From a virus (Duplodnaviria > Caudoviricetes), in IMG/VR virus record IMGVR_UViG_3300012953_003264, positions 17,032 to 81,031 of that record: DNA of 64,000 bases, one strand, 5' to 3'. Position 1 is the first letter of the stretch. Each line of letters starts with the position of its first letter. Shown piece by piece: positions 13,530 to 47,487 of this stretch. Below the pieces are notes generated by a model, which saw only the letters and a program-made list of their open reading frames with translations, was not told the origin of the DNA and ran no database searches. Made by a program: the position numbers and the translations under genes.

Positions 13530-13530
13530 A

Positions 13531-14028: not shown

Positions 14029-14029
14029 G

Positions 14030-14611: not shown

Positions 14612-14619
14612 GATTTATC

Positions 14620-16065: not shown

Positions 16066-16066
16066 G

Positions 16067-29872: not shown

Positions 29873-29893
29873 CTATTTATACACGATAAATAG
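29873..29893. promoter_or_regulatory. Back-to-back late promoters (TATAAATA minus at 29874-29881; GATAAATA plus at 29885-29892)
   Basis: CTATTTAT-ACACG-ATAAATAG inverted repeat in the 45-nt divergent gap. Confidence 0.6.
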
Positions 29894-29897
29894 ATAT

Positions 29898-30635
29898 ATG
29901 GACATTAAAGTTGATTTAGATAAACACAAAAAAGTGAATTTAAACATCAAAGAAATCTTGACCAATAGATTTACAGCAAAATGGTGGTCGGATAAAAAGG
30001 TTGAAGATGAAAAATTACAATATGTTTTAGATTGTGCCTATTTAGCACCATCTAAAAGGAGTGAATATGATTATGAAATATTAGTATTAGGTGATTCTCC
30101 AAAAGCAAAAGAAATTAAAGATTGGTTATATTGGGAAAACAGTTGGTGTTATAAAGGTGAAAGAGCACCTGAAGGTGTTGACGGTACTCCTGATAGAAGA
30201 TATAACGGCCAATGTCAAGCACCTATAGTTTTAGTTTGGCATGGTATTATGGATAAAGTTTCTTATAACAGATTTACACCAAGAATAGATGAACCTGATT
30301 TATGTAGAGATATGGCAATCTCTACTTCAATAGCTATGATGGCAGCTGAAGAAGTAGGTTTACATACAGGTTTACAAAGTTGTTTTGAAGAAGATGAATT
30401 AGGTAAAAGATTAGGCAAAAAAGGATTTTCTTATATGCTTTTAGGTTTAGGTCATATTGATAAGTATGACCACAAAACTATTTTTCCAGACCATGGTCAT
30501 TTTCCAGGAAGATTTGTTTATAAAGATGGTAAACATATGGGTTTTGATTTTGGTAATAATCCTGCTTATGATAAAGAAGTGAATATCAGTAGAAGAGGCA
30601 AGAAGACAAAAGAAGACATCATTAAGTTTATATAA
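29898..30635 (+). CDS. Nitroreductase-family flavoprotein
   Basis: ILTNRFTAKWW, LDCAYLAPSK, QAPIVLV, MMAAEEVGLHTG, LLGLGH. Confidence 0.75.
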   Translation: MDIKVDLDKHKKVNLNIKEILTNRFTAKWWSDKKVEDEKLQYVLDCAYLAPSKRSEYDYEILVLGDSPKAKEIKDWLYWENSWCYKGERAPEGVDGTPDRRYNGQCQAPIVLVWHGIMDKVSYNRFTPRIDEPDLCRDMAISTSIAMMAAEEVGLHTGLQSCFEEDELGKRLGKKGFSYMLLGLGHIDKYDHKTIFPDHGHFPGRFVYKDGKHMGFDFGNNPAYDKEVNISRRGKKTKEDIIKFI

Positions 30636-30638
30636 ATA
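30631..30638 (+). promoter_or_regulatory. T4-type late promoter TATAAATA
   Basis: Overlaps nitroreductase stop, followed by AGGAG RBS and ATG 30658. Confidence 0.65.
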
Positions 30639-30657
30639 GAATTAGGAGTATTATATA

Positions 30658-31365
30658 ATGTCAGATAATGTAATTGTAAAACCAGGTGTAAGTGGTCAAT
30701 CAGTCCAATACGATACATCAAAAGTAAAATTAGAAACTGTAGCAGACGAACTTGCTTTATTAAGTTTAGGTGATTGGGAAGGCCTTAAAGTTAAAGTCAA
30801 TTCCGGTCAGTACAGAAAAGAAATTAAAGAATTAGAAAACGAATGGGTAGATTATCTACCTAGAACCGATAAAGTTAATAATAGAAAAGCTTTATCATTA
30901 ATGAATCTTCCAGGTAAAACTCATAAAGATAATCCTAGTTTAGCACAGGCATGTGTTGAAGCTGATAGATATATTAATGAAGCAGAGTTTAATACACCAA
31001 CTCTAGCATATGAAAAGTTACCTAGTTTACATCCTTTATTAGAATTATTTCCAACTTTAGGTAGAACATTTTTAGTTAAGTGTGGTGTTGGTGGATATTT
31101 TACACCTCATAGAGACCACCCATTTATGCCTAGAGATTCATTTAGAGTAGCAGTATTCTTACAAGATTGTCAACCAATGCAATTTGATTGGATACATGGT
31201 AATGAAAAAATGATGATTGAAGAAGGTAGACCATATTATGTTAATACAAAAAAAGTACATAGAACTATGAGTTGGGCAAAAAATAGTACACACTTAATTA
31301 TTAATGTACCTTTTACATCTGAAAATGTACAAACATTGATTGCAAATTTACAACATGCTCACTAG
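30658..31365 (+). CDS. Aspartyl/asparaginyl beta-hydroxylase-family 2OG-Fe(II) oxygenase
   Basis: GGYFTPHRD (HxD), FRVAVF, YYVNTKKVH, HLIINV. Confidence 0.75.
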   Translation: MSDNVIVKPGVSGQSVQYDTSKVKLETVADELALLSLGDWEGLKVKVNSGQYRKEIKELENEWVDYLPRTDKVNNRKALSLMNLPGKTHKDNPSLAQACVEADRYINEAEFNTPTLAYEKLPSLHPLLELFPTLGRTFLVKCGVGGYFTPHRDHPFMPRDSFRVAVFLQDCQPMQFDWIHGNEKMMIEEGRPYYVNTKKVHRTMSWAKNSTHLIINVPFTSENVQTLIANLQHAH

Positions 31366-32071
31366 ACCTCAAGAAGACAAAGACATAATATTAAACAATT
31401 TAGAAGATACATATTACATAGAAAACTTTGTATCTAAAGATGATATAAACGAGTTATGTGATATTTTTGATAATTCTTCTAATAAAGTTTATAAAGAAAC
31501 AGGACCTGTAACTTCTACAATAAAAGATTTTAAAATACCTGTTATGAGAAAAATAACAGATAAAATTTATAATCTATATCCTAATAGTGAGATTTACCAT
31601 GGTATGTTTTTCAATGTAAACTACCCCCATATTATACACAATGATGATAATAGAGATTGGCCTATAATTTATAAAGCATTTAATATACCTTTAAAATATG
31701 ATGGTGATGAAATGCCTTATTTGTGTTTCTTTGACCAAGTTTATCTTGACGGACCTAGTAAATTTTTTAATGGTGAAACAGATATGAAAACACATTATAA
31801 TACATGTGTCTATGACTACAAAGATGTATTAGGTAAAAATGATGAAGGTATAGAAAGTCATATCAAAGAAAAATATCTCACACATTTAAAAGATGAATGG
31901 TTAAAAGGTTTAAGTTTTAATTCAGCACATCATTGGAAACCAGGCAATACTATTGTATTTGATTCTTGTAGATTACATTGTGCTAGCGATTTTAGAACTA
32001 ATGTAAAAAGTAAATTAGGTATTAGTATATTTACGAAAGTGAGAGTAAATCCTCGGTACCATCCAAAGTAA
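31340..32071 (+). CDS. Putative 2OG-Fe(II) oxygenase (cupin fold)
   Basis: PHIIHNDD, AFNIPL, WKPGNTIVFDSCRLHCAS, KLGISIF. Confidence 0.6.
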   Translation: MQIYNMLTRPQEDKDIILNNLEDTYYIENFVSKDDINELCDIFDNSSNKVYKETGPVTSTIKDFKIPVMRKITDKIYNLYPNSEIYHGMFFNVNYPHIIHNDDNRDWPIIYKAFNIPLKYDGDEMPYLCFFDQVYLDGPSKFFNGETDMKTHYNTCVYDYKDVLGKNDEGIESHIKEKYLTHLKDEWLKGLSFNSAHHWKPGNTIVFDSCRLHCASDFRTNVKSKLGISIFTKVRVNPRYHPK

Positions 32072-32645
32072 ACATTAAAGCAATTCTAGGTGTTTTACTC
32101 ATATTAACTACTGCATGTTGGTAACCAATATTTAAGAAATTAGCAGTACCATCTTTTAAAATATAAGCTTCCATTTCATTATTTCTTTTAAATAAATTTA
32201 CAACATTATCACTACCATATATTGGTACGATACATCTTACTCCGTAGTTTACATCATAATCAACATGAAAAGGTATCATTTTACCAGGTGCTAATTTAGT
32301 TATTCTAACTCTACTAGCAGGTGCCTTACATTGAGTTACAATCTCCTCAAAATAACTGCCTGTATAATCTTCCGTAGGAACTTTATATAAATGTTCTTCT
32401 CTTCTTTTTAGTCTTTCTTTAATGCTTGTAGTATGTGGTAATACTTCACTAGGCGTTGTTAAATTAATTTGTTCAAAATTATCGTAAACACTTTTTACTA
32501 ATTCAGCGTGATTATCGCATAATCCAGGATTTGCTGATTCTACATCTAAAAACTTATCAGCTAACTTATCAGTTTCTTTTCTTAATTTAATTAAGTTAAT
32601 TGTAATAGGTAATGTAGCTACAGTAGGTAGTGTGTGTTTATTCAT
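32031..32645 (-). CDS. Aspartyl/asparaginyl beta-hydroxylase-family oxygenase (start revised to 32645)
   Basis: RVRITKLAPGKMIPFHVD, RCIVPI, FLNIGYQHAVVN, PRIALM; ATG 32645 overlaps upstream stop. Confidence 0.75.
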   Translation of the reverse strand: MNKHTLPTVATLPITINLIKLRKETDKLADKFLDVESANPGLCDNHAELVKSVYDNFEQINLTTPSEVLPHTTSIKERLKRREEHLYKVPTEDYTGSYFEEIVTQCKAPASRVRITKLAPGKMIPFHVDYDVNYGVRCIVPIYGSDNVVNLFKRNNEMEAYILKDGTANFLNIGYQHAVVNMSKTPRIALMFTLDGTEDLLSLS

Positions 32646-33285
32646 TAATTTTGCCATCATGTTTCCTTTCAACTATAAATTCAGATTCAGGCCGCCAATC
32701 ATAATCTCCTTGAAGTCTAATACTATAAACATATTGTAAAGTGTTATTAGTTTTAAACAAGAAATTCTTTTCTAATTGTAAACTATTGTACCATTCTCCT
32801 TTTGTATGTTCTTTAAAACTAGGTACAGTCATAACTTTTCTTCGTTGATATAATTTATTTATAGTAATATTATTAATATCATGTGTAATATAAAGTATCT
32901 TATATCCTTTCTCTCTCGCCCATTTGATTTGATGTTCTCCCATAATCAAACCACAATGGCTAAATCTATAGCCGTCTAGTATATGGTATCTACAAACTCT
33001 AACTGCAATGTCGGGGTCATTTGTATAATGTGATTTTTCAGCAGCTGATATTGATATCAATTTATCATACTTATTTAATTTTTCTCTAACTTTATTATTA
33101 GGTTTTAAATATGTTTCCCACTCTTCAACATATTTGTAACACATCCATGTTTCTATATTAGGGTCTTCGGGGTCGTACTTATCATAACTTAAACTATTGT
33201 TGCCTTCTTTAAAAGTTTGTTTTCTAAAAACTTCTATATTCGGCCAATGAATATTTGGATTATCTGAATATTTTTTTACTTCCAT
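32638..33285 (-). CDS. GNAT-like N-acyl/acetyltransferase
   Basis: RVCRYHILDGYRFSHCGLIM...QIKWAREKGYKILYIT...N...NKLY pattern. Confidence 0.5.
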   Translation of the reverse strand: MEVKKYSDNPNIHWPNIEVFRKQTFKEGNNSLSYDKYDPEDPNIETWMCYKYVEEWETYLKPNNKVREKLNKYDKLISISAAEKSHYTNDPDIAVRVCRYHILDGYRFSHCGLIMGEHQIKWAREKGYKILYITHDINNITINKLYQRRKVMTVPSFKEHTKGEWYNSLQLEKNFLFKTNNTLQYVYSIRLQGDYDWRPESEFIVERKHDGKINE

Positions 33286-33908
33286 TTTTCTAACCAGTTT
33301 TTATAAGATGATAACATTTCATCTTTACTCTTCCATTGTTTAGTTTCTTGTTTCTCAATAGTTACTAAATTACTTTTAAAACTATCTATATAATCAATTT
33401 CATTTCTTATAAAACCAATATTATCTTTATATAGATTATCCCAGCAATCATTTTTTACAATACTTTTTACAACATGACCACCCATTTTTTCTAATAGATG
33501 TTTAGTCATATCAAAGTGTCTACCTCCTGCCTTTTTTGAAGGTGTAAATGTAATTAGTATTATAGGTTTATATGAAAAACCATATGATGTGCCTAGATTA
33601 TTATTCATGTTTGATTTTACAACTAACCAATCCATAGCATTTTTAAATACTGCTGAATAATGACCTGTATGTTCAGGCACAGCAAAAACAAAAACATCTG
33701 TATCATGTAAATCTTTATCAAACTCTTTTATACCTTCATCAACTTTACCATCTACATCATTTGTATCAAGTAACTTCATGTTATAATCATTCATTGATTT
33801 ACATACATGAAAGTTAATATAATCATTCATCATTAATAAACCTCTAGTATTCATACTATCAGGATTATTACTAAAACTAAATGCTGAAATTTTACAAGAC
33901 ATAATCAA
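33276..33908 (-). CDS. NADPH-dependent FMN reductase (flavodoxin-like)
   Basis: DVFVFAVPEHTGHYSAVFKNAMDWL, KPIILITF, GG. Confidence 0.75.
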   Translation of the reverse strand: MIMSCKISAFSFSNNPDSMNTRGLLMMNDYINFHVCKSMNDYNMKLLDTNDVDGKVDEGIKEFDKDLHDTDVFVFAVPEHTGHYSAVFKNAMDWLVVKSNMNNNLGTSYGFSYKPIILITFTPSKKAGGRHFDMTKHLLEKMGGHVVKSIVKNDCWDNLYKDNIGFIRNEIDYIDSFKSNLVTIEKQETKQWKSKDEMLSSYKNWLEKWK

Positions 33909-34773
33909 AATGATTCCTCTCTTTATACCAACATGCCGACCTTAATAACTCTCTAGTTTGGTCTTTTGCTATCGTAGGCCTTCTATGAATAGTTGTTAAC
34001 TGGTCCATTAATAAAATATCACCAGGTTTCCATTTATGTTTATAAGTGTAGTTATCAGTTATAAAATCTTTATATATTTCATTATACAATTCTTTATGAG
34101 AAAAGTTTAACAAACCTACAAATTCTGTAATTTCATATGGTTGAAAAAATATACCTTCAATACCTAAAGGATGATTTGGTACTAGTTTATGTTTATCTAA
34201 TACACCTCGCCATTCTTTAAATCTTTTATCAATTAAATCAGCTCTACTTTTATTTCTATTTTGTTTTATACCATTCATAACTGTATCAGTATATTTTTTA
34301 TCCCAATCAGGCCTCCATGGTTGATTTATAGGAGTACCACCTGAATGATTTAATTTGGTGTATAAACTTTTATATAACTCTTTAGTTGTTGCACTTAATT
34401 TTCTCATGTAAGGAATACTAGTACATATCCATGTTTCAGTATCATATGTTATTGTTTTACCATACAAACCTATAACTTCTTGAGCGTCAGCGTGAGGTAC
34501 CAAATTACTGTGCCAATCTAATTCATCATCTGCAAATAGACCTTGATTTTCTCCGTCTACCTTTTCGTTTGTTACACGCCAAAAGTATTCACTATGTTCC
34601 TTATCTGTACACCAAATATCAGGACTTATATGATATCCAAATGCAAGATTCCATTTTGCAAATTCTTCAGGACTTGCACCACTATTTTCAATCACCAAAT
34701 ATCCATGTTCAGCAACCATTTTGTTTGCGTCAATAGGGTCTATTGCTTCTAATTTTTTATTTTGTAAAATCAT
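33892..34773 (-). CDS. TauD/TfdA-like dioxygenase with HSN motif
   Basis: HGYLVI, RVTNEK, GLFADDELDWHSN, HKWKPGDILLMDQLTTIHRR, RELLR. Confidence 0.75.
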   Translation of the reverse strand: MILQNKKLEAIDPIDANKMVAEHGYLVIENSGASPEEFAKWNLAFGYHISPDIWCTDKEHSEYFWRVTNEKVDGENQGLFADDELDWHSNLVPHADAQEVIGLYGKTITYDTETWICTSIPYMRKLSATTKELYKSLYTKLNHSGGTPINQPWRPDWDKKYTDTVMNGIKQNRNKSRADLIDKRFKEWRGVLDKHKLVPNHPLGIEGIFFQPYEITEFVGLLNFSHKELYNEIYKDFITDNYTYKHKWKPGDILLMDQLTTIHRRPTIAKDQTRELLRSACWYKERNHFDYVL

Positions 34774-35572
34774 CTTTTGTTATCACATAGTCCTTATATT
34801 TTGTTATACTTCTTTCTAACAATTCATGCCATTTAGGAATATTTAAAGTACCCATTGGCATTAATTGAATTCTTTTTGTAGGGTGGTAACCTGCGTCTGC
34901 GCCATGTTCATGTACCGTACCATCATATGCCATAGCATTTGTTTCTGGTGGTAACATAGGATATATTCTTGTTTGAGCATGGTCTTTTGTAAAATATAAA
35001 TGTTCTTTTTTCCAATCAGTAACTTTACTCCACCTAACTCTTACTTGACTAGGCTCTTGGTGTTTTAAATCTTCTCTTGCTTTGTCGTATTCGTCATAAT
35101 GAGGACCAACTCCGTGTGTATCTCTTCCTACAAATGCCAACCATCTAACATTATCATAAGGCATTGAATCAATAAATTTTATAATATCTGGAAACTCATC
35201 ATGTACAAAATCACACCACTCACCTTTTACATCTCCGTAATATGCACCATTTTTAAATAACATTAATGCTCTGTAATCGTGATTAATATATGTACTATGT
35301 CTTGAACTATTAATATCAGATTTATCCTTATCAAACCATACATGTTTCTTATCATTGATTGTAGTCCATCTTTTCCACATTAAATCTAAATCTAAATTAA
35401 CATATGGCACATCTAAAGGTGTCCAAACAACACCCTTATAACCATGATATTCACTTTTATAATTTACTTTATGGTGTTCATCATGTTCAGGATTATCTCT
35501 AGCAATATATTTTTCAATATTATCACCAGGCAATTTTTCATCTATGTCTTTAACTATTCTGTATCTTGCCAT
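34757..35572 (-). CDS. Putative 2OG-Fe(II) oxygenase
   Basis: GVGPHYDE (HxD), AYDGTVHEHG, KRIQL. Confidence 0.5.
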   Translation of the reverse strand: MARYRIVKDIDEKLPGDNIEKYIARDNPEHDEHHKVNYKSEYHGYKGVVWTPLDVPYVNLDLDLMWKRWTTINDKKHVWFDKDKSDINSSRHSTYINHDYRALMLFKNGAYYGDVKGEWCDFVHDEFPDIIKFIDSMPYDNVRWLAFVGRDTHGVGPHYDEYDKAREDLKHQEPSQVRVRWSKVTDWKKEHLYFTKDHAQTRIYPMLPPETNAMAYDGTVHEHGADAGYHPTKRIQLMPMGTLNIPKWHELLERSITKYKDYVITKDDFTK

Positions 35573-36192
35573 TTTTTATCCCAATCTTCATATAAATGAA
35601 GCCATTTACATATTGTTCTAACATCTGTATGTTCAGTAATTTTATTTTTCTTTTCGTATGGTTCTGATAATACTTTATACATATTTTCAGCACCTTCTTG
35701 TACCCACTCATAATTATCAGGAACACATTTTTCCCAACCGTGATTATATACTATATGTCCATGATGTATTACTTGAAAGTTTTTTAACAATCTTTTTATC
35801 TCGTCTGCATGTCTTCCACCATTCTTGTAACTAGGAGAGAATGTTACACTAAACATTGGCTTATGACTTATACTATAAGGTATATTTAAATCTTTATCGT
35901 AATTACTTTTTACAACTAACCAATCCATGGCATTTTTAAATGTACCACAATAACCTCCCATCATTTCCGCTATAAAAAATATATAAGCGTCAGCGTCAAT
36001 TAAAGCTTTGTCAAATTCTATTACACTATCAGGAACATTGCCGTCTGCCATATTAGTGTCTAATATTGGTATATTAAAATCACCTAGATTAACAACCTTA
36101 TGAAAAGGTATAAATTTATTTAAAAGTTTTATACCTCTTTGTTGCATAGACTTTGGCGAACAACTAAAATTAACTGCAACTATTTTATTCAT
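35554..36192 (-). CDS. NADPH-dependent FMN reductase (paralog of 33276-33908)
   Basis: DAYIFFIAEMMGGYCGTFKNAMDWL, KPMFSVTF. Confidence 0.75.
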   Translation of the reverse strand: MNKIVAVNFSCSPKSMQQRGIKLLNKFIPFHKVVNLGDFNIPILDTNMADGNVPDSVIEFDKALIDADAYIFFIAEMMGGYCGTFKNAMDWLVVKSNYDKDLNIPYSISHKPMFSVTFSPSYKNGGRHADEIKRLLKNFQVIHHGHIVYNHGWEKCVPDNYEWVQEGAENMYKVLSEPYEKKNKITEHTDVRTICKWLHLYEDWDKKWQDTE

Positions 36193-36803
36193 AGTAATTT
36201 AGCCTCTGCAATCAATCGTCTACCACAAAATATCTCTGCGTCAATAATATGTTCTTCCCAAATATCATAATCATCCATATCCTGTGTTATTGTTTTTAAT
36301 TCTAATCTATCATCATAATGTTTTTGTGTATGGTACGGTTCTTGTATGATAGCATTATTACACCAATAAAATTTCATGGTATCTTTAAACAATTTAAAAT
36401 GTTCTTTTTCATATAATAATACACCACTAAAAATTACAACATCAACTCTAAAACCAACTGATTCTAATTTATTCCAATCAGATACTTTATAATCTATATT
36501 TGGTTTATGGCACCATTGGTGCTGTGCAATTTTTATAGGTTCAGGTGAAGTATCAAATCCATAATAATTATAAAACTGATAATTCTTCTCATGTAATATT
36601 TCATTTACTGGACCGTGTCGGCAACCTACATCTACAATACCTTTATATCCGTTTTCAATAATAATGTCTGCCTGTTTTTCAAAGATAGGTTTTGCCTCTT
36701 TTGTATCAAGGTATGACATATCATTCATAGCATACTCTTTTCTCAAAGGCACTTTAAAATCAGATGGCAGTTTAGGCCACGGAATGGATTTTGTTGAAAT
36801 CAC
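36189..36803 (-). CDS. Class I SAM-dependent methyltransferase
   Basis: IVDVGCRHG, YYGFDTS, DVVIFSGVLLY. Confidence 0.75.
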   Translation of the reverse strand: MISTKSIPWPKLPSDFKVPLRKEYAMNDMSYLDTKEAKPIFEKQADIIIENGYKGIVDVGCRHGPVNEILHEKNYQFYNYYGFDTSPEPIKIAQHQWCHKPNIDYKVSDWNKLESVGFRVDVVIFSGVLLYEKEHFKLFKDTMKFYWCNNAIIQEPYHTQKHYDDRLELKTITQDMDDYDIWEEHIIDAEIFCGRRLIAEAKLL

Positions 36804-37590
36804 TTGCTATTCTCCATAATAATCTATTGTTGTCCATAACTGGTGTTCTTCGGTGTAAACTAGTAAATTGGTCCATTAAAAGTAAATCACCTTTTTTAAA
36901 TATATGATGATACTGATACTCTGATTTAAATATTAATTTTTTTAACTTATCAATCATTTCTTCATGGTCAATTAGTGTTTTTCCTTGCCATGCTTTAATT
37001 ATAAAATGATAAGGAAAATAAAAGTAAAATTTATCTATATGTGGGTGTTTGCCAACTAAAGGCCTAATACTACCTTTATTCTTGCTCATAAATTCTAACT
37101 CGGGGTCACCTTCTTCTAAATCATATATTGTATTGTTTCTAAATTTTAATCTTATCTTTATAGACTTCCAGTATTCTTGTTCATCTTCGGATAATTCATA
37201 AAAAGGTTTACTAGTATTACATACGCTTAAAGTTGTATTGATATCTTCTTTTACACAATATAAACTAATTAAAATTTTATCTATTAAGTGTCTTGAATTA
37301 CCATTTGAATGCCAACCTAATTCTGTATCACCAAACATACCAATTTTTTTGCCGTCTTTATCTCTTTTACCTGTAACTAAAAATATTTCTGGATATTCTT
37401 TAGGATTCATAAAAAGCATAGGTGTTTCACATTCACCAAATTTCTTTAATGTATCAACATATTCTCTTTCATTAAAATCTTGATTATACATTACTGCCAC
37501 GCCTTCTCGGTGTATGACATCTACTAATTGTTTTAGTTTTTTATTATCTAAAGTTTTTAATTGTGTTGTTGTTTTAAATGGTTCTATCAT
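36772..37590 (-). CDS. TauD/TfdA-like dioxygenase with HSN motif
   Basis: EGVAV, FLVTGK, GMFGDTELGWHSN, LYCV, HPH, FKKGDLLLMDQFTSLHRR, RLLWR. Confidence 0.8.
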   Translation of the reverse strand: MIEPFKTTTQLKTLDNKKLKQLVDVIHREGVAVMYNQDFNEREYVDTLKKFGECETPMLFMNPKEYPEIFLVTGKRDKDGKKIGMFGDTELGWHSNGNSRHLIDKILISLYCVKEDINTTLSVCNTSKPFYELSEDEQEYWKSIKIRLKFRNNTIYDLEEGDPELEFMSKNKGSIRPLVGKHPHIDKFYFYFPYHFIIKAWQGKTLIDHEEMIDKLKKLIFKSEYQYHHIFKKGDLLLMDQFTSLHRRTPVMDNNRLLWRIASDFNKIHSVA

Positions 37591-38993: not shown

Positions 38994-39001
38994 ACTCCTA
39001 T

Positions 39002-39571: not shown

Positions 39572-39578
39572 ATAAATA
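39571..39578 (+). promoter_or_regulatory. T4-type late promoter TATAAATA driving the glycosyltransferase/radical SAM arm
   Basis: Exact octamer 32 nt upstream of ATG 39611. Confidence 0.65.
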
Positions 39579-39598
39579 TAACCATTATTAGTTATGGA

Positions 39599-39606
39599 TA
39601 TTTATA
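39599..39606 (-). promoter_or_regulatory. T4-type late promoter TATAAATA driving the methyltransferase/desaturase/TauD arm
   Basis: tatttata 27 nt upstream of minus-strand ATG 39571. Confidence 0.65.
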
Positions 39607-39610
39607 CAAG

Positions 39611-40480: not shown

Positions 40481-41381
40481 TATATACTTTAAGAAAATAT
40501 CTGGCAATGAAAAACATACAGATAGATTTAAAAAGTTAGAATTACATTATAAAAAACTGGTAGAATATAAAAAAAATTACGCCAAAAAGATAGGTGCTGA
40601 TTTTAGAATATATACAAATGATGATTTATATATTAATTTTGATGATAAACAAAGCTTTCATATTGACACTTCATGGTCTGATTTTAAAGAAAAATATAAA
40701 GACTATGAGTTTGATGTACTAAATTTATTTAAGTTACATCTATTAGAAAAGGTCGCTAAAGAATACGACAATGTTTTATATTTAGATATGGATGTGGTGC
40801 CTAATACAAAAACAAGTTTTTTTGATGAGTTTGATATGAATAAATTGTGTGTTAGGTCTATAAATGCAACGACAGATGTATTACCTATGAAGTTTCAAAA
40901 ACATATTAAATCTGGTAAAAAAAGTTATATAAAAATTATAAGACTATTAGACAAATATAATGAACATGTAAAAGCTCTATGTAAAAAAGCAATGTTGATT
41001 AACCAAAATATAGCATGTAAAGATTACGAATTAGTAAATACTGGTATAGTTGGTGGTAATAGAAAAGCAATAGAACAATTAAAATTTACAGATAATTTAG
41101 AACACATGTTACAAGTTTTAAAAGACACTAAAGAAGAACTGTTTTATGATAAAGATATTACAGATTATTTCTTTCCTAATAATGAGGTCTTTTTTCATTA
41201 TCTGTTAGATAAAAACAAATTAGATTGGTTTAATTTGCCAGAAAAATGGCATAAAATCAATTATGGTTTAGAAGACTCTGAAATTACAGATGAATATAAA
41301 GAATGTAAAATGATTCATGTTATTAGTAAGAAGTTTGATAAACTATGGAAAATATTAGAAAATAATGTGGAAAAACAATAA
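40461..41381 (+). CDS. GT-A fold glycosyltransferase-like protein (paralog; start revised to 40461)
   Basis: MTKLIFSIYF mirrors MKRVVYSIYI; LFKLHL, VLYLDMD, VNTGIVG, NNEVFF, MIHVI. Confidence 0.65.
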   Translation: MTKLIFSIYFKKISGNEKHTDRFKKLELHYKKLVEYKKNYAKKIGADFRIYTNDDLYINFDDKQSFHIDTSWSDFKEKYKDYEFDVLNLFKLHLLEKVAKEYDNVLYLDMDVVPNTKTSFFDEFDMNKLCVRSINATTDVLPMKFQKHIKSGKKSYIKIIRLLDKYNEHVKALCKKAMLINQNIACKDYELVNTGIVGGNRKAIEQLKFTDNLEHMLQVLKDTKEELFYDKDITDYFFPNNEVFFHYLLDKNKLDWFNLPEKWHKINYGLEDSEITDEYKECKMIHVISKKFDKLWKILENNVEKQ

Positions 41382-42483
41382 TCTCAAAGTCATGTTTGAC
41401 ATATCAACCAGATGTAATGCTGGTTGCCCCCAATGTCATAGAACCGATACAAACAATGTATCAAAAAAAGTATCTTGGTTACCAGATGTAGTTTGGTCTT
41501 TTGAAAATTTTAAAAAGGCAGTACCACCAAAAATGGCTAAAGATATGAAGACAGCTGACTTTTGTGGAACCTGGGGCGACCCTATTACTAATAATGATTT
41601 AATAGATATAGTTAAATATCTAGTTACAGAAAATCCTAGAATTAATATAGATTTAAACACCAATGGCTCTTTAAGAAATGAAGATTGGTGGTGGAGATTA
41701 GGTGTGGCAGGTGGTAGAAATCTATGTGTTACTTTTGCTGTTGAAGGCATAAATCAAGAAATGCATGAACACTATAGACAAAACACTTATTTAAATAAAA
41801 TTCTTGAAAATATGAGAGTTGTATCTAATACTTTAGCATTTGTAAAAACACAATGTCTAGTTTGGAAACACAATGAAAATCATTTACAAGAGATAGAAGA
41901 CATGTGTATAAAAAACGGTTCTAAATCTCATGTGTTAATGGTGACAGATAGATTTGGTGATGAAGGTACATCCGAGTTAAAATTCGTTCATAAAGGTAAA
42001 GAGAAAGTATTAGAACAAACAAATTGGAAAGTAGAAAATACTAATGATAATATAGTACAAACAAGTAGAAGAAGGTATCGTAGAAGAGAAAAAGAATTAC
42101 CTGGTAAATCTGTAGAGATGGTTAGAAAATTAAGAAAACAACAAAGTAAAATGGATATTACTTGCGAATGGGGTAATAATAATAAAGTAGTTGTTAATCC
42201 TGATGGCCAAGTTTGGCCTTGTTGTTTTTTCTGTAACCCTACCTATAAATCACAATTTGTTGAAGGATATGACGCTAAGTTTAAGAACAATCCTGTTATG
42301 ATGGAATATGAAAAAAATAAATCCGATTTAAATGTATTTAAAAATAGTTTAGATAAAATTATAAATGACAAATGGTACAAAACTACACTACCGAATAGTT
42401 GGCAATCTGATAAACCTGTAAGTCAATGTATTAGATATTGTGGTAAAAAAAGTAAAATGAAAGAAATGCTGGATAAAATTTAA
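41365..42483 (+). CDS. Radical SAM enzyme with C-terminal SPASM/twitch domain
   Basis: CNAGCPQC (CxxxCxxC), CGTWGDP, NTNG, C...NPDGQVWPCC, CIRYC. Confidence 0.88.
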   Translation: MWKNNNLKVMFDISTRCNAGCPQCHRTDTNNVSKKVSWLPDVVWSFENFKKAVPPKMAKDMKTADFCGTWGDPITNNDLIDIVKYLVTENPRINIDLNTNGSLRNEDWWWRLGVAGGRNLCVTFAVEGINQEMHEHYRQNTYLNKILENMRVVSNTLAFVKTQCLVWKHNENHLQEIEDMCIKNGSKSHVLMVTDRFGDEGTSELKFVHKGKEKVLEQTNWKVENTNDNIVQTSRRRYRRREKELPGKSVEMVRKLRKQQSKMDITCEWGNNNKVVVNPDGQVWPCCFFCNPTYKSQFVEGYDAKFKNNPVMMEYEKNKSDLNVFKNSLDKIINDKWYKTTLPNSWQSDKPVSQCIRYCGKKSKMKEMLDKI

Positions 42484-43616
42484 TGGGCTTTTTAAAAAGA
42501 AATAAAAGTTATTGTGTAATGCCTTTTAGTGAGATATATGCTGATAGTGCCGGCAGATATAAACTATGTTGTCATGCTGGTAAAATGGATGAACTAAAAA
42601 AATATAACACATCTACACACAACCCATTTGACTTTTTCTTATCTAAAGAAATGGATGAAGTAAGAAATAAAATGTTGAGTGGTATAAAAATACCCGAATG
42701 TCAAATTTGTTATGACCAAGAAAAACATGGTAAATCATTTAGAACTGGAAAATATAATGACAGATACAATATCGTAACAGAGCCTATTGAAATAGGTCTA
42801 AAGCTTAGAGTAAATGGTTCATTTTGCAATTTATCTTGTTACATGTGCCACCCTTATAACTCATCTACTAAACGAAATGAAATGAAAGAAACTTTTGGTA
42901 CACAATTGGTTAAAGGTTTTTATAATGATAGTAACCAATATAAAGCTGTGAAACATGACCGTTGGAATAGTATTATTGATGACATTTTAAAACACATACA
43001 TTTAATTAAACATATTCATTTAACAGGAGGTGAACCTTTACAATTACCTAAACATTGGGAAATGATTGATAAAATACCAAAAGAACATGCAAAAAATATT
43101 GGTTTAGCTTATGACACAAATCTTACTGAATTAAGATATAAAAATCATTCAGTTTATGATGTTATAGATAAATTTAAAAGAGTATATTACGGTATATCCT
43201 GTGACCATTATCAAGAAAAATTATCATGGATAAGATACCCTATTGATGTAAAAAAATTTGAAAGTAATTTAAAAGAGATGGCAGCTCACACGGATAGGCG
43301 TATCAATGTTACAATATCAATGTTAAATGTGGATGATTTATTAGATATTAAAAAATATTATAAAAATAATTTTAATGTAGATACAAACTTTAATAATATA
43401 TGTATAGCTCCTTTTCCATTATCTGTACGAAATCATAAAAATAAAAAAGAACTTATAGAAAAATACAAAGATTTACCTGAATTTAGTAAAGTTGTTACAG
43501 AATTACAAAAATATGTTACTGATAAAGATAATATAAAAATGATAGATTACCTAGACGCATTATCTAAAAAAAGAAACTTTGACTGGAGAAATTTATGGAA
43601 AAATGGCGTGGTATAA
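42483..43616 (+). CDS. Radical SAM enzyme with N-terminal twitch domain
   Basis: N-terminal YCVMPF...YKLCC, CQIC; CNLSCYMC; LTGGEP; TNLT. Confidence 0.88.
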   Translation: MGFLKRNKSYCVMPFSEIYADSAGRYKLCCHAGKMDELKKYNTSTHNPFDFFLSKEMDEVRNKMLSGIKIPECQICYDQEKHGKSFRTGKYNDRYNIVTEPIEIGLKLRVNGSFCNLSCYMCHPYNSSTKRNEMKETFGTQLVKGFYNDSNQYKAVKHDRWNSIIDDILKHIHLIKHIHLTGGEPLQLPKHWEMIDKIPKEHAKNIGLAYDTNLTELRYKNHSVYDVIDKFKRVYYGISCDHYQEKLSWIRYPIDVKKFESNLKEMAAHTDRRINVTISMLNVDDLLDIKKYYKNNFNVDTNFNNICIAPFPLSVRNHKNKKELIEKYKDLPEFSKVVTELQKYVTDKDNIKMIDYLDALSKKRNFDWRNLWKNGVV

Positions 43617-44539
43617 ACATAGACGCCAGCGCTAAGTGTACACTTGAATGTCCTAAATGTTTAAGACAAACATTAAGAAAAGATGGTGTAAAAATACCAG
43701 GTGAAGATATGTCTATTACAACTTATAAAAAGTTGTTAAAATATTATGATGGTGGAATAGTATTTTGTGGTCAATTATCTGACCCTATATTTAATGATAA
43801 TTTAATTGAAATGTTAAAGTTATCAAAAGATAGACCATGGGTACATATTAATACAGCTGCTACATCTAAAAAAAGAAAAAAAGACTGGTACGAAAAAGCA
43901 TTTAAAGCCAATCTAAAAGCTCAATGGACTTTTGGTATTGATGGTCTACCACATCAAAGTTATATTTACAGAATAGGTCAAGACGGTGAATTTTTATTTG
44001 ATATGATGAAGTTTGGTAAAGAGTGTGGTGTTAAAGTATTATGGCAATATATAATATTTAAATATAATGAAAAATATATAGATAAAGCTAAACAACTTGC
44101 AAAAGAACACAATATACCTTTTGAATTAAATTATTCTGGTAGGTGGAATGATGAAAGCGATTATGACCCATATAAACCTTCATTAGAAAATAGAATTGTA
44201 AGTAAACATAATAGAGGGCATTTAAAAAGAAAATTTACTCCAAAATGTATTAAAGACAACATACCTGTGGCAATATCAGCCACACAATCTTTATTACCTT
44301 GTTGTTGGATTGATAAGAGAGAAGGTTGGGCAGACCCTATACTTAAAAAGTTTTTTAACGATAAACTAAATTTAAAAAATGTAGATAGTGTTGATGATAT
44401 AATAAAAACTGGAACATGGCAAGAGTTTTTTTCATTGCTTATAAATAATCCAGAGTTGGCACCAGACCTTTGTAAACATCATTGTACATCAAAGGTTAAT
44501 GAAAACCCTAATAGAATGAGAATAGTACAAAATGATTAA
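43595..44539 (+). CDS. Radical SAM enzyme with C-terminal twitch domain
   Basis: CTLECPKC, CGQLSDP, FGIDG, WQYIIFKYNE, LLPCCW, CKHHC. Confidence 0.88.
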   Translation: MEKWRGINIDASAKCTLECPKCLRQTLRKDGVKIPGEDMSITTYKKLLKYYDGGIVFCGQLSDPIFNDNLIEMLKLSKDRPWVHINTAATSKKRKKDWYEKAFKANLKAQWTFGIDGLPHQSYIYRIGQDGEFLFDMMKFGKECGVKVLWQYIIFKYNEKYIDKAKQLAKEHNIPFELNYSGRWNDESDYDPYKPSLENRIVSKHNRGHLKRKFTPKCIKDNIPVAISATQSLLPCCWIDKREGWADPILKKFFNDKLNLKNVDSVDDIIKTGTWQEFFSLLINNPELAPDLCKHHCTSKVNENPNRMRIVQND

Positions 44540-45284
44540 AATATTTACGGTGTACTTTGACGGAAAATATACACCAGATTATGTTGAAAAACTTTGGAAT
44601 GGTTTAAAAAGAAATTGTACACTACCATTTGAGTTTATTTGTTATAGTGATAATCCTAATGTAAAGGCTGATAGAGTTATTCCTTTACCTAATCCAAAAC
44701 ATACACCAATTAAAAAACATTGGCACAAAATGAGTGTCTTTTCGCCTTTGTTTGGCTATCAAAATCCAGATGATGAGATTATAATAATGGATATTGACCA
44801 GATAATATTAGGTAACATTGACCATATTATTGGAAGACCAGTAGGAAATAATCAAATAATATCTTATAAGAAATGGTGGGGATTTGATAACTTACCTTTA
44901 AATGGTGGATTTTATAAATTTAAATCTGGTGGTGCATGTAAACAAATATGGCAGGAGTTTTTAAAATGTCCTGAAGATTGGCAGTTACATTACTTTAAAA
45001 AAATGACCGTTCATTACAAATATTTTGGAGAACAAAACTTTGTTCATAGATGTGTAGAAAAATTTAATATTGATTTAATTACACTACCTGGCAATCAGAT
45101 TTGTAAAATAACAAATGATAAAAAACAAAATATGGAAGTATCTTTAGAATATATGAAAAGATATAATGCTGATTATATGATTTTAGATAAACCTCATCCT
45201 GATATTAAGATTATACACTTTGCAAATCCACACACAACCATACACGAGTCTGAATATGAATGGATTAAGGATTATTGGAAATGA
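44532..45284 (+). CDS. GT-A (GT8-like) glycosyltransferase
   Basis: YVEKLWNGLKRN, WHKM, MDID (DxD), LNGG, GEQNF, IIHF. Confidence 0.7.
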   Translation: MIKIFTVYFDGKYTPDYVEKLWNGLKRNCTLPFEFICYSDNPNVKADRVIPLPNPKHTPIKKHWHKMSVFSPLFGYQNPDDEIIIMDIDQIILGNIDHIIGRPVGNNQIISYKKWWGFDNLPLNGGFYKFKSGGACKQIWQEFLKCPEDWQLHYFKKMTVHYKYFGEQNFVHRCVEKFNIDLITLPGNQICKITNDKKQNMEVSLEYMKRYNADYMILDKPHPDIKIIHFANPHTTIHESEYEWIKDYWK

Positions 45285-45679
45285 TTGTAAATAAAAGTTT
45301 TATGATGATAAAAACTATCTCTTATGCCTTGAATGATATAAAATATAAAGTAGATTGTTTAGAACAATTAAAACAATACAAATTTAATAGAATTCTTTTA
45401 CCTAATTTTAGTTATGGTGTTTTTGAAAATGTATTAACTATTCATATGGAATATATAAAAGGTCAACAAATTACTTCAAATAAAAAAAAGAGTTATACAG
45501 ATATAGTATATGAAGATTTGGTATGTTCAACAAATCCTATATCAGCAAAGGGTTATGCTTTAGAAAATTTTATTATAACAGGAGATAAAATATATTATAT
45601 TGATTTAGAAGATATGGCATTTTGTAGTATAGAAGACCGAAAGATAAAGTTTAAAAAAGATTGGATAGATGAAAAATGA
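45281..45679 (+). CDS. Degenerate kinase-like protein (start revised to ATG 45281)
   Basis: MEYIKG hinge, LENFI, YYIDLED; ATGA overlaps on both sides. Confidence 0.4.
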   Translation: MIVNKSFMMIKTISYALNDIKYKVDCLEQLKQYKFNRILLPNFSYGVFENVLTIHMEYIKGQQITSNKKKSYTDIVYEDLVCSTNPISAKGYALENFIITGDKIYYIDLEDMAFCSIEDRKIKFKKDWIDEK

Positions 45680-46263
45680 GCACACATTATAAAAGAATAA
45701 TTTGTGTTAATACTGGAGATAAATTTTCTAAATGGTATACTGATAACTTAAAGTATATGATTGATGTATGGTCAGGTTTAGGTTATGACCATTTTGAAGT
45801 TATAGATGAAGAGAAACATAATGGCGTTTTTAATAAACTTCAAATGTTTGATAAATTTAGAGATGGTGAAAATATATACTTTGATTTAGATGTTTGTATA
45901 TATGATAAACTTCCTAATTTAAAAAGGCAAAATTTAACGGTATTACATGCGTGGTGGAGAGATAGATGGCACACATCACTAAACTCTTCAATTATATCTT
46001 GGACAGGCGACCAATCACATATCTATAAAAAATTTATAGAAAAACCTGAATACTATCAGGAAAAATATAACAAAGGTATAGACCAAATGTTAGAAGAAAT
46101 GTATAACCCTGCTACATTTGGTAAAGTATGTTATACTATTCAAAATAATGAGTTTGAAGATAAGAATAAAGAATATCCGATGGTATTATTTAATCAAAGA
46201 CAATTCTTAATGGAACCAGGTTGGTCTGGTTGGTGGACTAATTATTTTCTTCCCAAATACTAA
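45676..46263 (+). CDS. GT-A glycosyltransferase-like protein
   Basis: IICVNTGDKF, NKLQMF, YFDLD (DxD), NSSIISW, GIDQ. Confidence 0.65.
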   Translation: MSTHYKRIICVNTGDKFSKWYTDNLKYMIDVWSGLGYDHFEVIDEEKHNGVFNKLQMFDKFRDGENIYFDLDVCIYDKLPNLKRQNLTVLHAWWRDRWHTSLNSSIISWTGDQSHIYKKFIEKPEYYQEKYNKGIDQMLEEMYNPATFGKVCYTIQNNEFEDKNKEYPMVLFNQRQFLMEPGWSGWWTNYFLPKY

Positions 46264-46771
46264 TAAAGTATTTCAAAGCTTCTGCTGGAGATTTAGATTT
46301 TCTAATAGCAGATTTTAGTTTTTCATTTTTACTATTTTTTACAATTTCGTTTTCAAACAAGTAAATTTTCCATGAAAACAATTTGTCTAACTGTTCTTCA
46401 TCTTTAGTTGTTAAAAATTTAATAATATGTTCATATAAATTTTCATCAACCTTTTCAGTTAATTTTTTATAAAGACCTTCAGATTCAGCTATGTTTTTTA
46501 CTTGAATTACAAAGTCTTCTCGTTCTTGTTTCTTTTGTTGCCAAGTGTTTTCGTGCAATTGTTCTAAATCGCATATCTCTAATAATTCTTTACAAGTAGG
46601 ATGCTCTTCATCATACTCTATAGTGTGAGGTCTAACTTCTACTTTTCCTGTGCCAAAATTAGGCTCTTTTAATAGAACTTCAATAGTTGTTCTATCATTA
46701 TCAATAAAGTACGCTGTATAAAAGTTTTCTCTATTAATAGTATCTGTAGTTATTAAATTTTGTGTGTTCAT
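46238..46771 (-). CDS. Hypothetical protein
   Basis: 177-aa ORF coupled to epimerase stop. Confidence 0.6.
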   Translation of the reverse strand: MNTQNLITTDTINRENFYTAYFIDNDRTTIEVLLKEPNFGTGKVEVRPHTIEYDEEHPTCKELLEICDLEQLHENTWQQKKQEREDFVIQVKNIAESEGLYKKLTEKVDENLYEHIIKFLTTKDEEQLDKLFSWKIYLFENEIVKNSKNEKLKSAIRKSKSPAEALKYFISIWEENN

Positions 46772-47487
46772 TAATTTACCACCTTGTTCTTTTTTATATA
46801 ATCAAACAAATCAATGCTTGACTTCCAACCATAACTATTTAGTATAGTTGTATCTGCCTTATTATCAAATCTTTCATTATCACCACCTATTTGACCTTTG
46901 GCCTCTATACCTACTCTAGTCAGAATATCCGTCAATTTATTTGAAACTCCTGTACCTACATCTAATATTCCTGTGTAAGTATTGTGAAGTAATAATAGTA
47001 TTGATGAAATAACATCATCTACATGTATAAAATCTCGTTTGTGGTTTACATTTATATATGGTACATCATTTCTTAAAATTCTAGGTATTAACATGGTTTC
47101 TCTTGCACCTGGTCCATAAACAGTTGTAAATCTCATTCCTACACTATTTTTTGGTGCTATTTGTTCCATAGAATACTTACTCATTGCATATGGATTTTTC
47201 CATGGTTCATATGCTGTACTTGAACTAGCATATAGTATTCTCTTATCTTTATATCTATCAAAAATTCTTTGAGTTGCAATTACATTATTAATCCAATAGT
47301 CAGTTGGTCTATCTAAACTATCTCTAACGCCTGAAAGTCCTGCTAAATGTATTACAACATCTACATCTGGTAATTCACATGTCATAATGTCTTTGCCAGA
47401 TTTAATGTCTAAACAATGAAAATGATAATCTGTATTTCTTAAATTTGAACCTATGAAGCCTTCGCTTCCAGTCATTAATATCTTCAT
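46771..47487 (-). CDS. NAD-dependent nucleotide-sugar epimerase/dehydratase
   Basis: TGSEGFIG, HLAG, YASSS, YAMSK (YxxxK), RFTTVYGP, RDFIHVDD. Confidence 0.9.
   Translation of the reverse strand: MKILMTGSEGFIGSNLRNTDYHFHCLDIKSGKDIMTCELPDVDVVIHLAGLSGVRDSLDRPTDYWINNVIATQRIFDRYKDKRILYASSSTAYEPWKNPYAMSKYSMEQIAPKNSVGMRFTTVYGPGARETMLIPRILRNDVPYINVNHKRDFIHVDDVISSILLLLHNTYTGILDVGTGVSNKLTDILTRVGIEAKGQIGGDNERFDNKADTTILNSYGWKSSIDLFDYIKKNKVVN

What the first reader, a model, noticed from the sequence alone, without database searches (positions are those of the whole stretch)
29898..47487. 17.6-kb late-promoter-driven biosynthetic/tailoring gene cluster in a T4-like phage (top candidate system)
Seen: about 24 contiguous, mostly overlapping genes, nearly all enzymes: nitroreductase, 4 cupin 2OG oxygenases, 2 TauD-like, 2 FMN reductases, GNAT, 2 methyltransferases, PLP enzyme, desaturase, 4 GT-A proteins, 3 radical SAM, a kinase-like protein and an epimerase. 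They lie between fibre genes, and each arm starts at a TATAAATA-type octamer. Established: TATAAATA is the T4 gp55 late promoter, and typical auxiliary metabolic and nucleotide-modification genes are expressed earlier. Inference: an assembly-stage pathway that builds a modified glycan, aminolipid or small molecule, decorating virions or remodelling the host envelope (e.g. superinfection exclusion, grazer or defence evasion). I know of no characterised pathway with this composition.
Basis: partly seen in the sequence, partly recalled or inferred. Interest (0 to 1): 0.88.

Follow-up and report, generated by a model that had tools for sequence, protein, structure and literature searches.

The report
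Late-expressed enzyme island in SAR11 myophage
A T4-like phage of the abundant ocean bacterium SAR11 carries, among its tail-fibre genes, about 24 enzyme genes behind late-type promoter motifs; the island type is already published and its product is still unknown.

Summary
Window 29898-47487 carries 24 tightly packed genes, at least 19 with enzyme-family evidence. The contig is a pelagimyophage; the nearest isolate is Pelagibacter phage Mosig.

The region is the enzyme-rich half of the published "host recognition cluster" (HRC), which lies between neck gene gp14 and baseplate gene VrlC (PMC7029224). Mosig carries an annotated homologous cluster. An earlier agent of this scan found the core cassette on other DNA (e1-3446452).

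- The island has at least two modules. One is a conserved cassette: a Delta9-type membrane desaturase, AspH-type cupin, TauD, PLP enzyme, methyltransferase, FMN reductase and often a GNAT. It is present in 13-17 of 20 distinct relatives, and its membership persists where gene order is shuffled. The other is a variable sugar arm: four retaining GT-A transferases, three radical SAM enzymes and an SDR epimerase, present in 1-6 of 17.
- TATAAATA behaves as a promoter signal. 11 of 14 copies lie 18-32 nt before a same-strand start.
- All phage TauD copies carry His-x-Asn where the family has His-x-Asp.

The product is unknown. My best guess (about 0.4) is late remodelling of host envelope lipid and glycolipid. 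Virion decoration, unrelated auxiliary genes and an amino-acid-derived metabolite remain open. This is a new member of a known kind, of moderate interest.

The parts
29885..29892 (+). GATAAATA octamer, 5 nt before the w01 ATG
   Evidence: NATAAATA-N5-ATG is conserved before the w01 homologues in L009 and L010.
29898..30635 (+). w01, nitroreductase-fold flavoenzyme
   Evidence: PF00881, 4.1e-11. Found in only a few relatives.
30631..30638 (+). TATAAATA, 19 nt before w02
30658..31365 (+). w02, AspH-type cupin oxygenase
   Evidence: hhalign 95% to the w04 family. Invariant H151, D153, H201. 32% identity to Mosig_81.
31340..32071 (+). w03, unknown; H100-N-D102...H213 motif only
   Evidence: No family found.
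32031..32672 (-). w04, AspH-type cupin oxygenase (core cassette)
   Evidence: PF05118, 1.8e-6. Invariant H136, D138, H186. Present in 16 of 20 relatives.
32638..33285 (-). w05, GNAT-like acyltransferase (core, often present)
   Evidence: Look-alike clusters carry PF00583. No PDB or Pfam hit. Present in 13 of 20.
33276..33908 (-). w06, NADPH-dependent FMN reductase
   Evidence: PF03358, 7.5e-16.
33892..34773 (-). w07, TauD-family protein with W-H-S-N
   Evidence: PF02668, 2.3e-19. Asn stands in place of the iron-binding Asp.
34757..35572 (-). w08, unknown phage-only family
   Evidence: 44 metagenomic clusters, none with a Pfam family. Fold failed.
35554..36192 (-). w09, NADPH-dependent FMN reductase (paralogue of w06)
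   Evidence: PF03358, 3.8e-13. 38% identical to w06.
36189..36803 (-). w10, class I SAM methyltransferase (core)
   Evidence: Pfam methyltransferase families. Present in 16 of 20.
36772..37590 (-). w11, TauD-family protein with W-H-S-N (core)
   Evidence: PF02668, 1.2e-21. Aligned to WHTD of PDB 6d3h. Present in 17 of 20.
37574..38362 (-). w12, short class-I aminotransferase-fold PLP enzyme (core)
   Evidence: Invariant S150-x-S152-K153. HisC structures at 8e-5. Present in 16 of 20.
38337..38993 (-). w13, mini Delta9 (SCD/DesC)-type membrane desaturase; the only membrane protein of the island
   Evidence: PF00487. Four hydrophobic spans and three His boxes. At least 230 metagenomic clusters.
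39002..39571 (-). w14, methyltransferase-like; first gene of the minus operon
   Evidence: Weak Pfam and NCBIfam hits, plus a motif. 25% identity to Mosig_90.
39571..39606 (.). Divergent promoter gap with TATAAATA on both strands
   Evidence: The same arrangement occurs in Mosig and in L002-L004 and L011.
39611..40480 (+). w15, GT8-like retaining glycosyltransferase
   Evidence: DxD motif. Look-alike clusters carry PF01501 in 14-25% of members, which is a lead only.
40335..41381 (+). w16, paralogue of w15
   Evidence: 28% identity, 2e-31. The true start is probably downstream of 40335.
41365..42483 (+). w17, radical SAM/SPASM enzyme
   Evidence: PF04055 and PF13186. CxxxCxxC at residue 17.
42483..43616 (+). 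w18, N-terminal twitch radical SAM enzyme
   Evidence: NF033640, 231.7 bits against a cut-off of 170.
43595..44539 (+). w19, radical SAM enzyme
   Evidence: phrog_21308. CxxxCxxC at residue 15. Paralogue of w17.
44532..45284 (+). w20, glycosyltransferase
   Evidence: phrog_1962, 9.4e-15.
45275..45679 (+). w21, ORFan with a TTG start; 'kinase-like' not confirmed
45676..46263 (+). w22, retaining GT-A fold glycosyltransferase
   Evidence: AF2 pLDDT 94.6. Foldseek top hits are glycogenin, GlyE, LgtC and PBCV-1 A64R.
46238..46771 (-). w23, acidic protein of unknown function
   Evidence: No family. 38% identity to Mosig_95.
46771..47487 (-). w24, compact SDR sugar-nucleotide epimerase/dehydratase-like enzyme
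   Evidence: PF01370, 1.8e-23. GxxGxxG and YxxxK present. It has no promoter of its own and follows w25.

Best explanation
SHOWN.
- The stretch is the enzyme-rich half of the pelagimyophage host recognition cluster.
- It is built from separable modules.
- Module A is the minus operon, 39571 down to 32031. It is a conserved, phage-specific oxygen- and iron-dependent cassette: a Delta9-type membrane desaturase, AspH-type cupin(s), TauD-type enzymes with a His-x-Asn site, a PLP enzyme, SAM methyltransferase(s), FMN reductase(s) and a GNAT.
- Module B is the plus operon 39611-46263 plus w24. It is a variable sugar kit: four retaining GT-A transferases, three radical SAM enzymes and an SDR epimerase.
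- The operon heads carry T4-type late-promoter octamers.

INFERRED.
- Both modules are transcribed with the fibre and baseplate genes late in infection and act in the host cytoplasm and at the inner membrane.
- Module A desaturates, hydroxylates, methylates or acylates a membrane lipid or lipid-linked head group, with the flavin reductases supplying electrons.
- Module B makes a modified nucleotide-sugar and adds short sugar branches to a lipid-linked acceptor of LPS/LOS type, which host machinery then exports.
- The net effect would be a changed infected-cell surface that blocks superinfection and reduces loss of progeny on cell debris.
- The actual product is unknown.
For: Position:
- gp14 neck at 9563-10387, VrlC at 49480-55737, and the Mosig synteny fix the position in the HRC.

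Cassette conservation:
- The cassette is present in 13-17 of 20 distinct relatives, and the sugar arm in 1-6 of 17.
- Cassette membership is kept where gene order is shuffled, and in a different neighbourhood.

Envelope and lipid indications:
- w13 is the only membrane protein. It has the SCD/DesC His boxes.
- No flippase, polymerase or priming transferase is present, so any glycan must use host export.
- The transferases are GT8-like. GT8 is the LPS-associated family that PMC7029224 reports as commonest in these phages.

Late expression:
- 11 of 14 octamers lie 18-32 nt before a same-strand start.
- In relatives the octamer occurs only before the first genes of the operon, never inside it.
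- In about 24 loci the cassette reads straight into fibre genes.
Against: - No expression, lipid or glycan data exist for any of these phages.
- The AspH-type cupins lack the membrane anchors I recall for LpxO/OlsC (the anchors are from memory).
- TauD enzymes, a PLP enzyme and a GNAT are more typical of amino-acid chemistry than of lipid chemistry.
- The nearest structural neighbours of w22 include protein-glycosylating enzymes.
- Surface change made only late in infection gives limited protection against superinfection.
- A heme oxygenase/bilin reductase cassette lies in the same region. Position there therefore says little about function.
Confidence: 0.4

Rival explanations
1. Virion decoration. 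The late enzymes hydroxylate, glycosylate or otherwise modify tail-fibre or baseplate proteins, tuning host recognition or stability.
For: - The island is embedded in, and co-directional with, fibre and baseplate genes, behind late octamers.
- All enzymes except w13 are soluble.
- The w22 fold is closest to glycogenin, GlyE (adhesin glycosylation) and PBCV-1 A64R (capsid glycosylation).
- AspH-type and SPASM radical SAM families often act on proteins or peptides (established knowledge).
- The neighbouring structural proteins are 20-27% Ser/Thr.
Against: - A membrane lipid-type desaturase is the most conserved member.
- Flavin reductases, a nitroreductase and TauD enzymes are not typical protein modifiers.
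- No collagen-like repeats are present.
- The cassette also occurs away from recognisable fibre genes.
- Non-virion auxiliary genes share the same region.
Confidence: 0.22
2. No common product. The island is a late-region dumping ground of independently acting auxiliary enzymes (membrane-fluidity desaturase, redox helpers, assorted oxygenases, sugar enzymes) that expand and shuffle.
For: - Paralogue expansions: two TauD, two FMN reductases, AspH-type cupins, three radical SAM, four transferases.
- Mosaic relatives.
- In a distant T4-like phage, a desaturase, epimerase, transferase and 2OG oxygenase are scattered among gp33, gp59 and gp32.
- The second island holds unrelated functions.
- Cyanophage desaturases act alone as auxiliary genes (PMC5776448).
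Against: - Cassette membership persists through order shuffling and relocation.
- Genes overlap tightly in one operon.
- TauD and the PLP enzyme stay adjacent across lineages.
Confidence: 0.2
3. The conserved cassette makes an amino-acid-derived small molecule: hydroxylation, then PLP-dependent elimination or cyclisation, then N-acylation and methylation. The product would be free, or later attached by the sugar arm.
For: - TauD sits next to a class-I-fold PLP enzyme. This recalls VioC/VioD, and the transmembrane hydroxylase GntB with PLP enzyme GntC (10.1101/2023.03.21.533663).
- A GNAT, methyltransferases and AspH-type hydroxylases fit amino-acid tailoring.
- There is a weak NCBIfam hint to GntC (E 0.024).
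Against: - The similarities are at family level only, and the GntC hit is not significant.
- w13 has acyl-lipid desaturase motifs.
- No ligase, NRPS or exporter is present in the island.
Confidence: 0.12
4. DNA hypermodification. Transferases, radical SAM, PLP, GNAT and methyltransferase enzymes decorate phage DNA bases before packaging.
For: The enzyme classes overlap with those of thymidine hypermodification pathways (from memory; not tested here).
Against: - The island lies in the structural region.
- No base hydroxymethylase or confirmed kinase was found in the island.
- PMC7029224 reports that a restriction-modification system is encoded in only one of more than 100 sequenced SAR11 genomes.
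Confidence: 0.03

Closest known systems
Gene cluster Mosig_00072 to Mosig_00096 of Pelagibacter phage Mosig EXVC030M (MT647606.1, about 54.7-72.5 kb)
   Same: - Same position, between fibre genes and VrlC.
- Shared homologues of w02, w04-w06, w09-w17, w19, w20 and w22-w24 at 25-86% identity.
- Same divergent promoter gap.
   Different: - Mosig lacks w03, w08, w18 and w21 and has no BLAST-detectable w01 homologue; its single TauD (Mosig_75) matches w07 only as a paralogue (30%), and it has one FMN reductase.
- It adds a peroxiredoxin, a DegT-type aminotransferase, a carbamoyltransferase and further radical SAM and nitroreductase genes.
- Its cassette reads directly into the fibre genes.
Host recognition cluster of pelagimyophages (Zaragoza-Solas et al. 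2020, PMC7029224)
   Same: - A hypervariable island between VrlC and gp14 holding fibres, glycosyltransferases and radical SAM cassettes.
- It was proposed to alter the host surface and avoid co-infection.
   Different: The passages I read do not resolve the island into a conserved oxygenase cassette and a variable sugar arm. They do not mention promoter placement or the His-x-Asn TauD enzymes.
Cell-wall/LPS gene sets of cyanomyoviruses (P-SSM2, S-SCSM1, S-SCSM2R; PMC12801897)
   Same: Many glycosyltransferases, sugar epimerases, a PLP enzyme and a radical SAM maturase clustered in a marine T4-like phage. Function is inferred only.
   Different: The transferase families differ, and no desaturase/AspH/TauD cassette is reported there. 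The host is a cyanobacterium.
Cyanophage-encoded Delta9 lipid desaturases (PMC5776448)
   Same: A short phage Delta9-type acyl-lipid desaturase used as an auxiliary gene.
   Different: w13 has no tblastn match below 1e-5 in any isolate phage except Mosig. It is embedded in a multi-enzyme operon.
Virus-encoded virion glycosylation (mycobacteriophages, Freeman et al. 2023, cited in PMC12801897; chlorovirus PBCV-1 A64R)
   Same: Transferase genes sit beside structural genes. The A64R fold is among the w22 neighbours.
   Different: No glycosylated pelagiphage protein is known, and the island holds many non-sugar enzymes.

Membership tests
Pelagimyophage host recognition cluster (HRC) | Lies between the VrlC baseplate gene and the gp14 neck gene | tested here: met
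   VrlC homologue at 49480-55737. T4 neck protein at 9563-10387 and gp15 at 8757-9563.
Pelagimyophage host recognition cluster (HRC) | Contains tail-fibre genes plus glycosyltransferases and other non-structural genes | tested here: met
   Fibre genes at 19.9-29.9 kb. Transferases w15, w16, w20 and w22.
Pelagimyophage host recognition cluster (HRC) | Gene content varies between related phages | tested here: met
   Presence matrix over 65 loci.
T4-type late transcription unit | TATAAATA octamer a short distance upstream of the first gene | tested here: met
   Exact for the operons that start at w14, w15 and w02. One mismatch and 5-nt spacing for w01.
T4-type late transcription unit | Transcribed late, dependent on gp55/gp33 | not testable with these tools
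   No transcript data. gp33 was seen only in a distant relative.
Fe(II)/2OG dioxygenase, TauD/TfdA family | His-x-Asp/Glu...His iron triad | tested here: not met
   His-x-Asn in w07, w11, Mosig_75 and all 40 distinct copies in relatives. Bacterial relatives keep Asp.
Fe(II)/2OG dioxygenase, TauD/TfdA family | Overall fold and sequence family, distal His, and 2OG-binding Arg | tested here: met
   PF02668 at 1e-19 to 1e-21. PDB profile hits to 5.6e-14. Invariant H246, R256 and R260.
Acyl-lipid/acyl-CoA Delta9 desaturase (SCD/DesC) | Three His boxes (HRxxxH, HRxHH..DPH, GEGxHxxHH) in a four-helix membrane protein | tested here: met
   At about 210 aa it is shorter than the roughly 270-360 aa I recall for this family.
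Ornithine-lipid/lipid A modification kit (OlsC/LpxO, OlsE, OlsG, OlsB) | Membrane-anchored AspH-type hydroxylase; FA_hydroxylase-type OlsE; OlsB-type N-acyltransferase | tested here: inconclusive
   w02 and w04 hit PF05118 or its family but have no hydrophobic span. w13 is desaturase-type, not PF04116. w05 is only a generic GNAT. No direct comparison with Ols/Lpx sequences was run.
O-antigen/capsule biosynthesis locus | Flippase, polymerase or ABC exporter, and a priming transferase | tested here: not met
   No such family, and no membrane protein other than w13.

The most novel reading that the evidence does not exclude
The conserved cassette is a phage-specific pathway built around non-canonical 2-His-1-Asn TauD-type enzymes. 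It makes a new lipid or amino-acid-derived compound in infected SAR11 cells. The variable transferase/radical SAM arm attaches that compound, or a modified sugar, to the cell surface or to the virion. Host recognition in one of the ocean's most abundant phage groups would then depend on phage-made chemistry.
Probability: 0.25. Interest if true: 0.8.

Novelty: new member of a known kind. Interest (0 to 1): 0.5.

Why it matters
- SAR11 myophages are abundant. The cassette's desaturase alone has at least 230 clusters at 90% identity in public metagenomes.
- A phage of an iron-poor ocean host carries about a dozen iron-dependent enzyme genes in this island alone, so these genes are probably under selection.
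- The function of this island type is unknown, but it is testable, because Mosig grows on HTCC1062 and has the homologous cluster.
- The His-x-Asn TauD group is large. About 92 of the roughly 130 full-length representatives among the nearest 150 carry Asn. It may represent unexplored iron-enzyme chemistry.

Tried and rejected
- **w08:** AlphaFold on a 6-sequence alignment gave pLDDT 47, which is unusable. Profile search found 44 phage-only clusters with no Pfam family.
- **w03, w08 and the cupins:** hhalign of w03 and w08 against the AspH, TauD and 2OG-FeII_Oxy_5 families found no link.
- **PDB searches:** the w05, w03, w21 and w18 searches found nothing, and the w15/16 profile gave only non-significant hits (E at least 0.11).
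- **PHROGs and NCBIfam** added little for the unknown proteins.
- **Exact look-up of w13:** not on record.
- **Sigma-70 and terminator scan:** promoter-like sites are not above chance (149 against 134 +/- 12). Terminator-like sites were 12 against 5.2 +/- 2.5 expected but were not followed up.
- **Bacterial homologues of the TauD clade:** the three close hits are phage contigs binned into MAGs. True bacterial hits are 22-26% identical and keep Asp, and none is SAR11. Recent capture from the host is therefore rejected.
- **w13 as a cyanophage vFAD orthologue:** not supported. Mosig is the only isolate match.
- **Collagen-like repeats as hydroxylation targets:** none found.
- **Literature on N-twitch radical SAM function:** nothing useful.

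Full report
**What the window is.** The window is 64 kb of an 81-kb metagenomic contig. Its nearest isolate is Pelagibacter phage Mosig EXVC030M, with 73-80% nucleotide identity in parts. Almost all genes run on the minus strand. In order they are portal gp20, tube gp19, sheath gp18, terminase, gp15 and neck gp14 (2-10.4 kb); a first enzyme island (11.2-19.1 kb); fibre genes (19.9-29.9 kb); the finding (29.9-47.5 kb); three Ser/Thr-rich acidic proteins; and VrlC (49.5-55.7 kb). The 39 kb between gp14 and VrlC fits the published definition of the pelagimyophage "host recognition cluster" (PMC7029224). Both enzyme islands are lower in G+C (27-31%) than the structural genes (33-37%).

**Observation.** Twenty-four ORFs (w01-w24) fill 29898-47487 in four strand blocks, and most overlap their neighbours.
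- Direct family hits support the nitroreductase, one AspH-type cupin, two TauD proteins, two FMN reductases, one methyltransferase, the desaturase, two radical SAM enzymes and the epimerase.
- Further work supports a second AspH-type cupin (hhalign 95%) and a class-I-fold PLP enzyme with an invariant SxSK lysine motif.
- It also supports a GNAT, from look-alike clusters only, and a second, weak methyltransferase.
- A third radical SAM and an N-terminal-twitch radical SAM that passes its NCBIfam cut-off are supported too.
- Four GT-A transferases are supported. w22 folds at pLDDT 94.6 and matches glycogenin, GlyE, LgtC and PBCV-1 A64R. w20 hits a PHROG transferase family. w15 and w16 have a DxD motif and GT8 look-alikes.
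- Not confirmed: two of the four "cupins" (w03 and w08, motif only) and the "kinase-like" w21, which has no match and no homologue in any relative. w23 has no family.

**Promoters.** The raw TATAAATA count is not above chance (14 against 16 expected).
- Placement is far from chance. 11 of 14 copies lie 18-32 nt upstream of a same-strand start, in DNA that is almost entirely coding.
- The 39-bp divergent gap at 39572-39610 holds one octamer for each operon. Mosig has the same arrangement.
- In relatives the octamer occurs only before w02-like, w14-like or w13 genes, which lie at the upstream end of the operon. It never occurs before w04-w12.
- w01 has GATAAATA exactly 5 nt before its ATG, and NATAAATA-N5-ATG is conserved before its homologues.
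- The w24-w23 block has no octamer of its own and continues the structural operon.
- In L005, L006, L009 and L040 the whole enzyme set is co-directional with the structural genes. In about 24 loci the cassette reads straight into the small fibre genes.
- Late co-expression is therefore well supported by anatomy, but it has not been measured.

**Modules.** I retrieved 65 IMG/VR loci through the desaturase and scored each window gene in them.
- Among 20 distinct loci with enough flanking DNA, w12, w11, w10, an FMN reductase, w05 and w04 are present in 13-17.
- Among 17 with enough DNA on the other side, the sugar-arm genes are present in 1-6.
- w01-w03 with w07-w08 form a third small cassette, found in about 2-5 of the 20 distinct loci.
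- In the L022/L036 lineage the cassette order is shuffled (desaturase, cupin, TauD, PLP, TauD, methyltransferase, FMN reductase) but membership is kept.
- L040 and L067 carry a variant with a B12 radical SAM and a second desaturase. In L067 it lies near NifU and IscA genes.
- In a distant T4-like phage, a 30-35% desaturase homologue, an epimerase, a transferase and a 2OG oxygenase are scattered among gp33, gp59 and gp32.
- The island is therefore not one obligate 17.6-kb pathway. The cassette behaves as a unit. This agrees with an earlier agent's verdict on other DNA (e1-3446452).

**Chemistry clues.**
- w13 is the only membrane protein of the island. It has the three His boxes of SCD/DesC Delta9 desaturases.
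- All phage TauD copies read W-H-x-N where solved relatives read W-H-T-D. The distal His and two Arg are kept.
- Bacterial relatives at 22-26% identity keep Asp. About 92 of the roughly 130 full-length representatives among the nearest 150 carry Asn.
- The nearest solved relatives of w11 include ScoE, and that of w17 is an archaeal lipid synthase. These are weak, family-level hints.
- No flippase, polymerase or priming transferase is present.
- No SAR11 homologue of the TauD clade was found.

**Interpretation.** I favour late remodelling of host membrane lipid and LPS/LOS-type glycolipid, at about 0.4. This matches the published suggestion for this island type. The rivals are virion decoration (0.22), unrelated auxiliary genes (0.2), an amino-acid-derived metabolite from the cassette (0.12; the precedent is hydroxylase plus PLP enzyme pairs such as VioC/VioD and GntB/GntC), and DNA modification (0.03). 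None can be settled without experiments. Mosig on HTCC1062 makes those experiments feasible.

**Novelty.** The island type is published, Mosig's cluster is annotated, and the scan has already seen the cassette on other DNA. New here are the split into cassette and sugar arm, the promoter geometry, and the breadth of the His-x-Asn clade. I rate it a new member of a known kind, interest 0.5.

Noticed in passing
window 33892-34773 and 36772-37590; Mosig_75; 40 copies in loci L002-L049: Every phage TauD-family copy has W-H-x-Asn where the family's iron-binding Asp should be. The distal His and the two Arg are kept. Bacterial relatives keep Asp, and about 70% of the nearest 150 cluster representatives carry Asn.
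   Followed up: yes
window 29885-29892 (+) and 38999-39006 (-); L001 15978-15985; w01 homologues in L009 and L010: A sharp class of NATAAATA octamers lies exactly 5 nt before an ATG: 18 of 137 distinct TATAAATA contexts, against a main mode of 18-32 nt. With T4 late-promoter geometry (recalled, not tested) the A of ATG would be the transcript start, which suggests leaderless late mRNAs.
   Followed up: partly
window 11229-19097: A second low-GC enzyme island lies in the same host recognition cluster. It holds a bilin reductase, a heme oxygenase, a DUF401/CitMHS-like membrane transporter, four 2OG-FeII_Oxy_5/3-type oxygenases and a 556-aa protein with a C-terminal methyltransferase domain. All are downstream of the TATAAATA at 19921.
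   Followed up: partly
window 37574-38362: The PLP enzyme is only about 260-300 aa in all relatives. From memory, class I aminotransferases are about 350-400 aa. It keeps the SxSK...R-I-G-Y signature.
   Followed up: partly
L067 and L068 (ENA contigs of 164 kb and 22 kb); L040: A variant cassette carries a B12-binding radical SAM, a second desaturase and extra AspH cupins. In L067 it lies a few kb downstream of NifU and IscA-type Fe-S assembly genes.
   Followed up: no
L069, L070, L071 (genome contigs): Contigs labelled as Paceibacter, Bacteriovoracaceae and Bdellovibrionales MAGs carry 34-74% identical copies of the phage His-x-Asn TauD; two of the contigs are 118 and 152 kb, a phage-genome size. 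They look like T4-like phage contigs binned into bacterial MAGs.
   Followed up: no
window 32031-32071 and 46238-46263: The convergent operons end in overlapping genes (41 and 26 nt). The only terminator-like site at either junction is a weak one (6 pairs, 3 G-C) on the minus strand at 32068-32051, in the wrong direction to end the plus-strand w01-w03 block. Converging late transcripts would collide or produce antisense RNA.
   Followed up: no
window 45275-45679: w21 is an ORFan with a TTG start and no homologue in any of the 65 relatives or in Mosig. It may be a gene remnant or a spurious ORF.
   Followed up: partly
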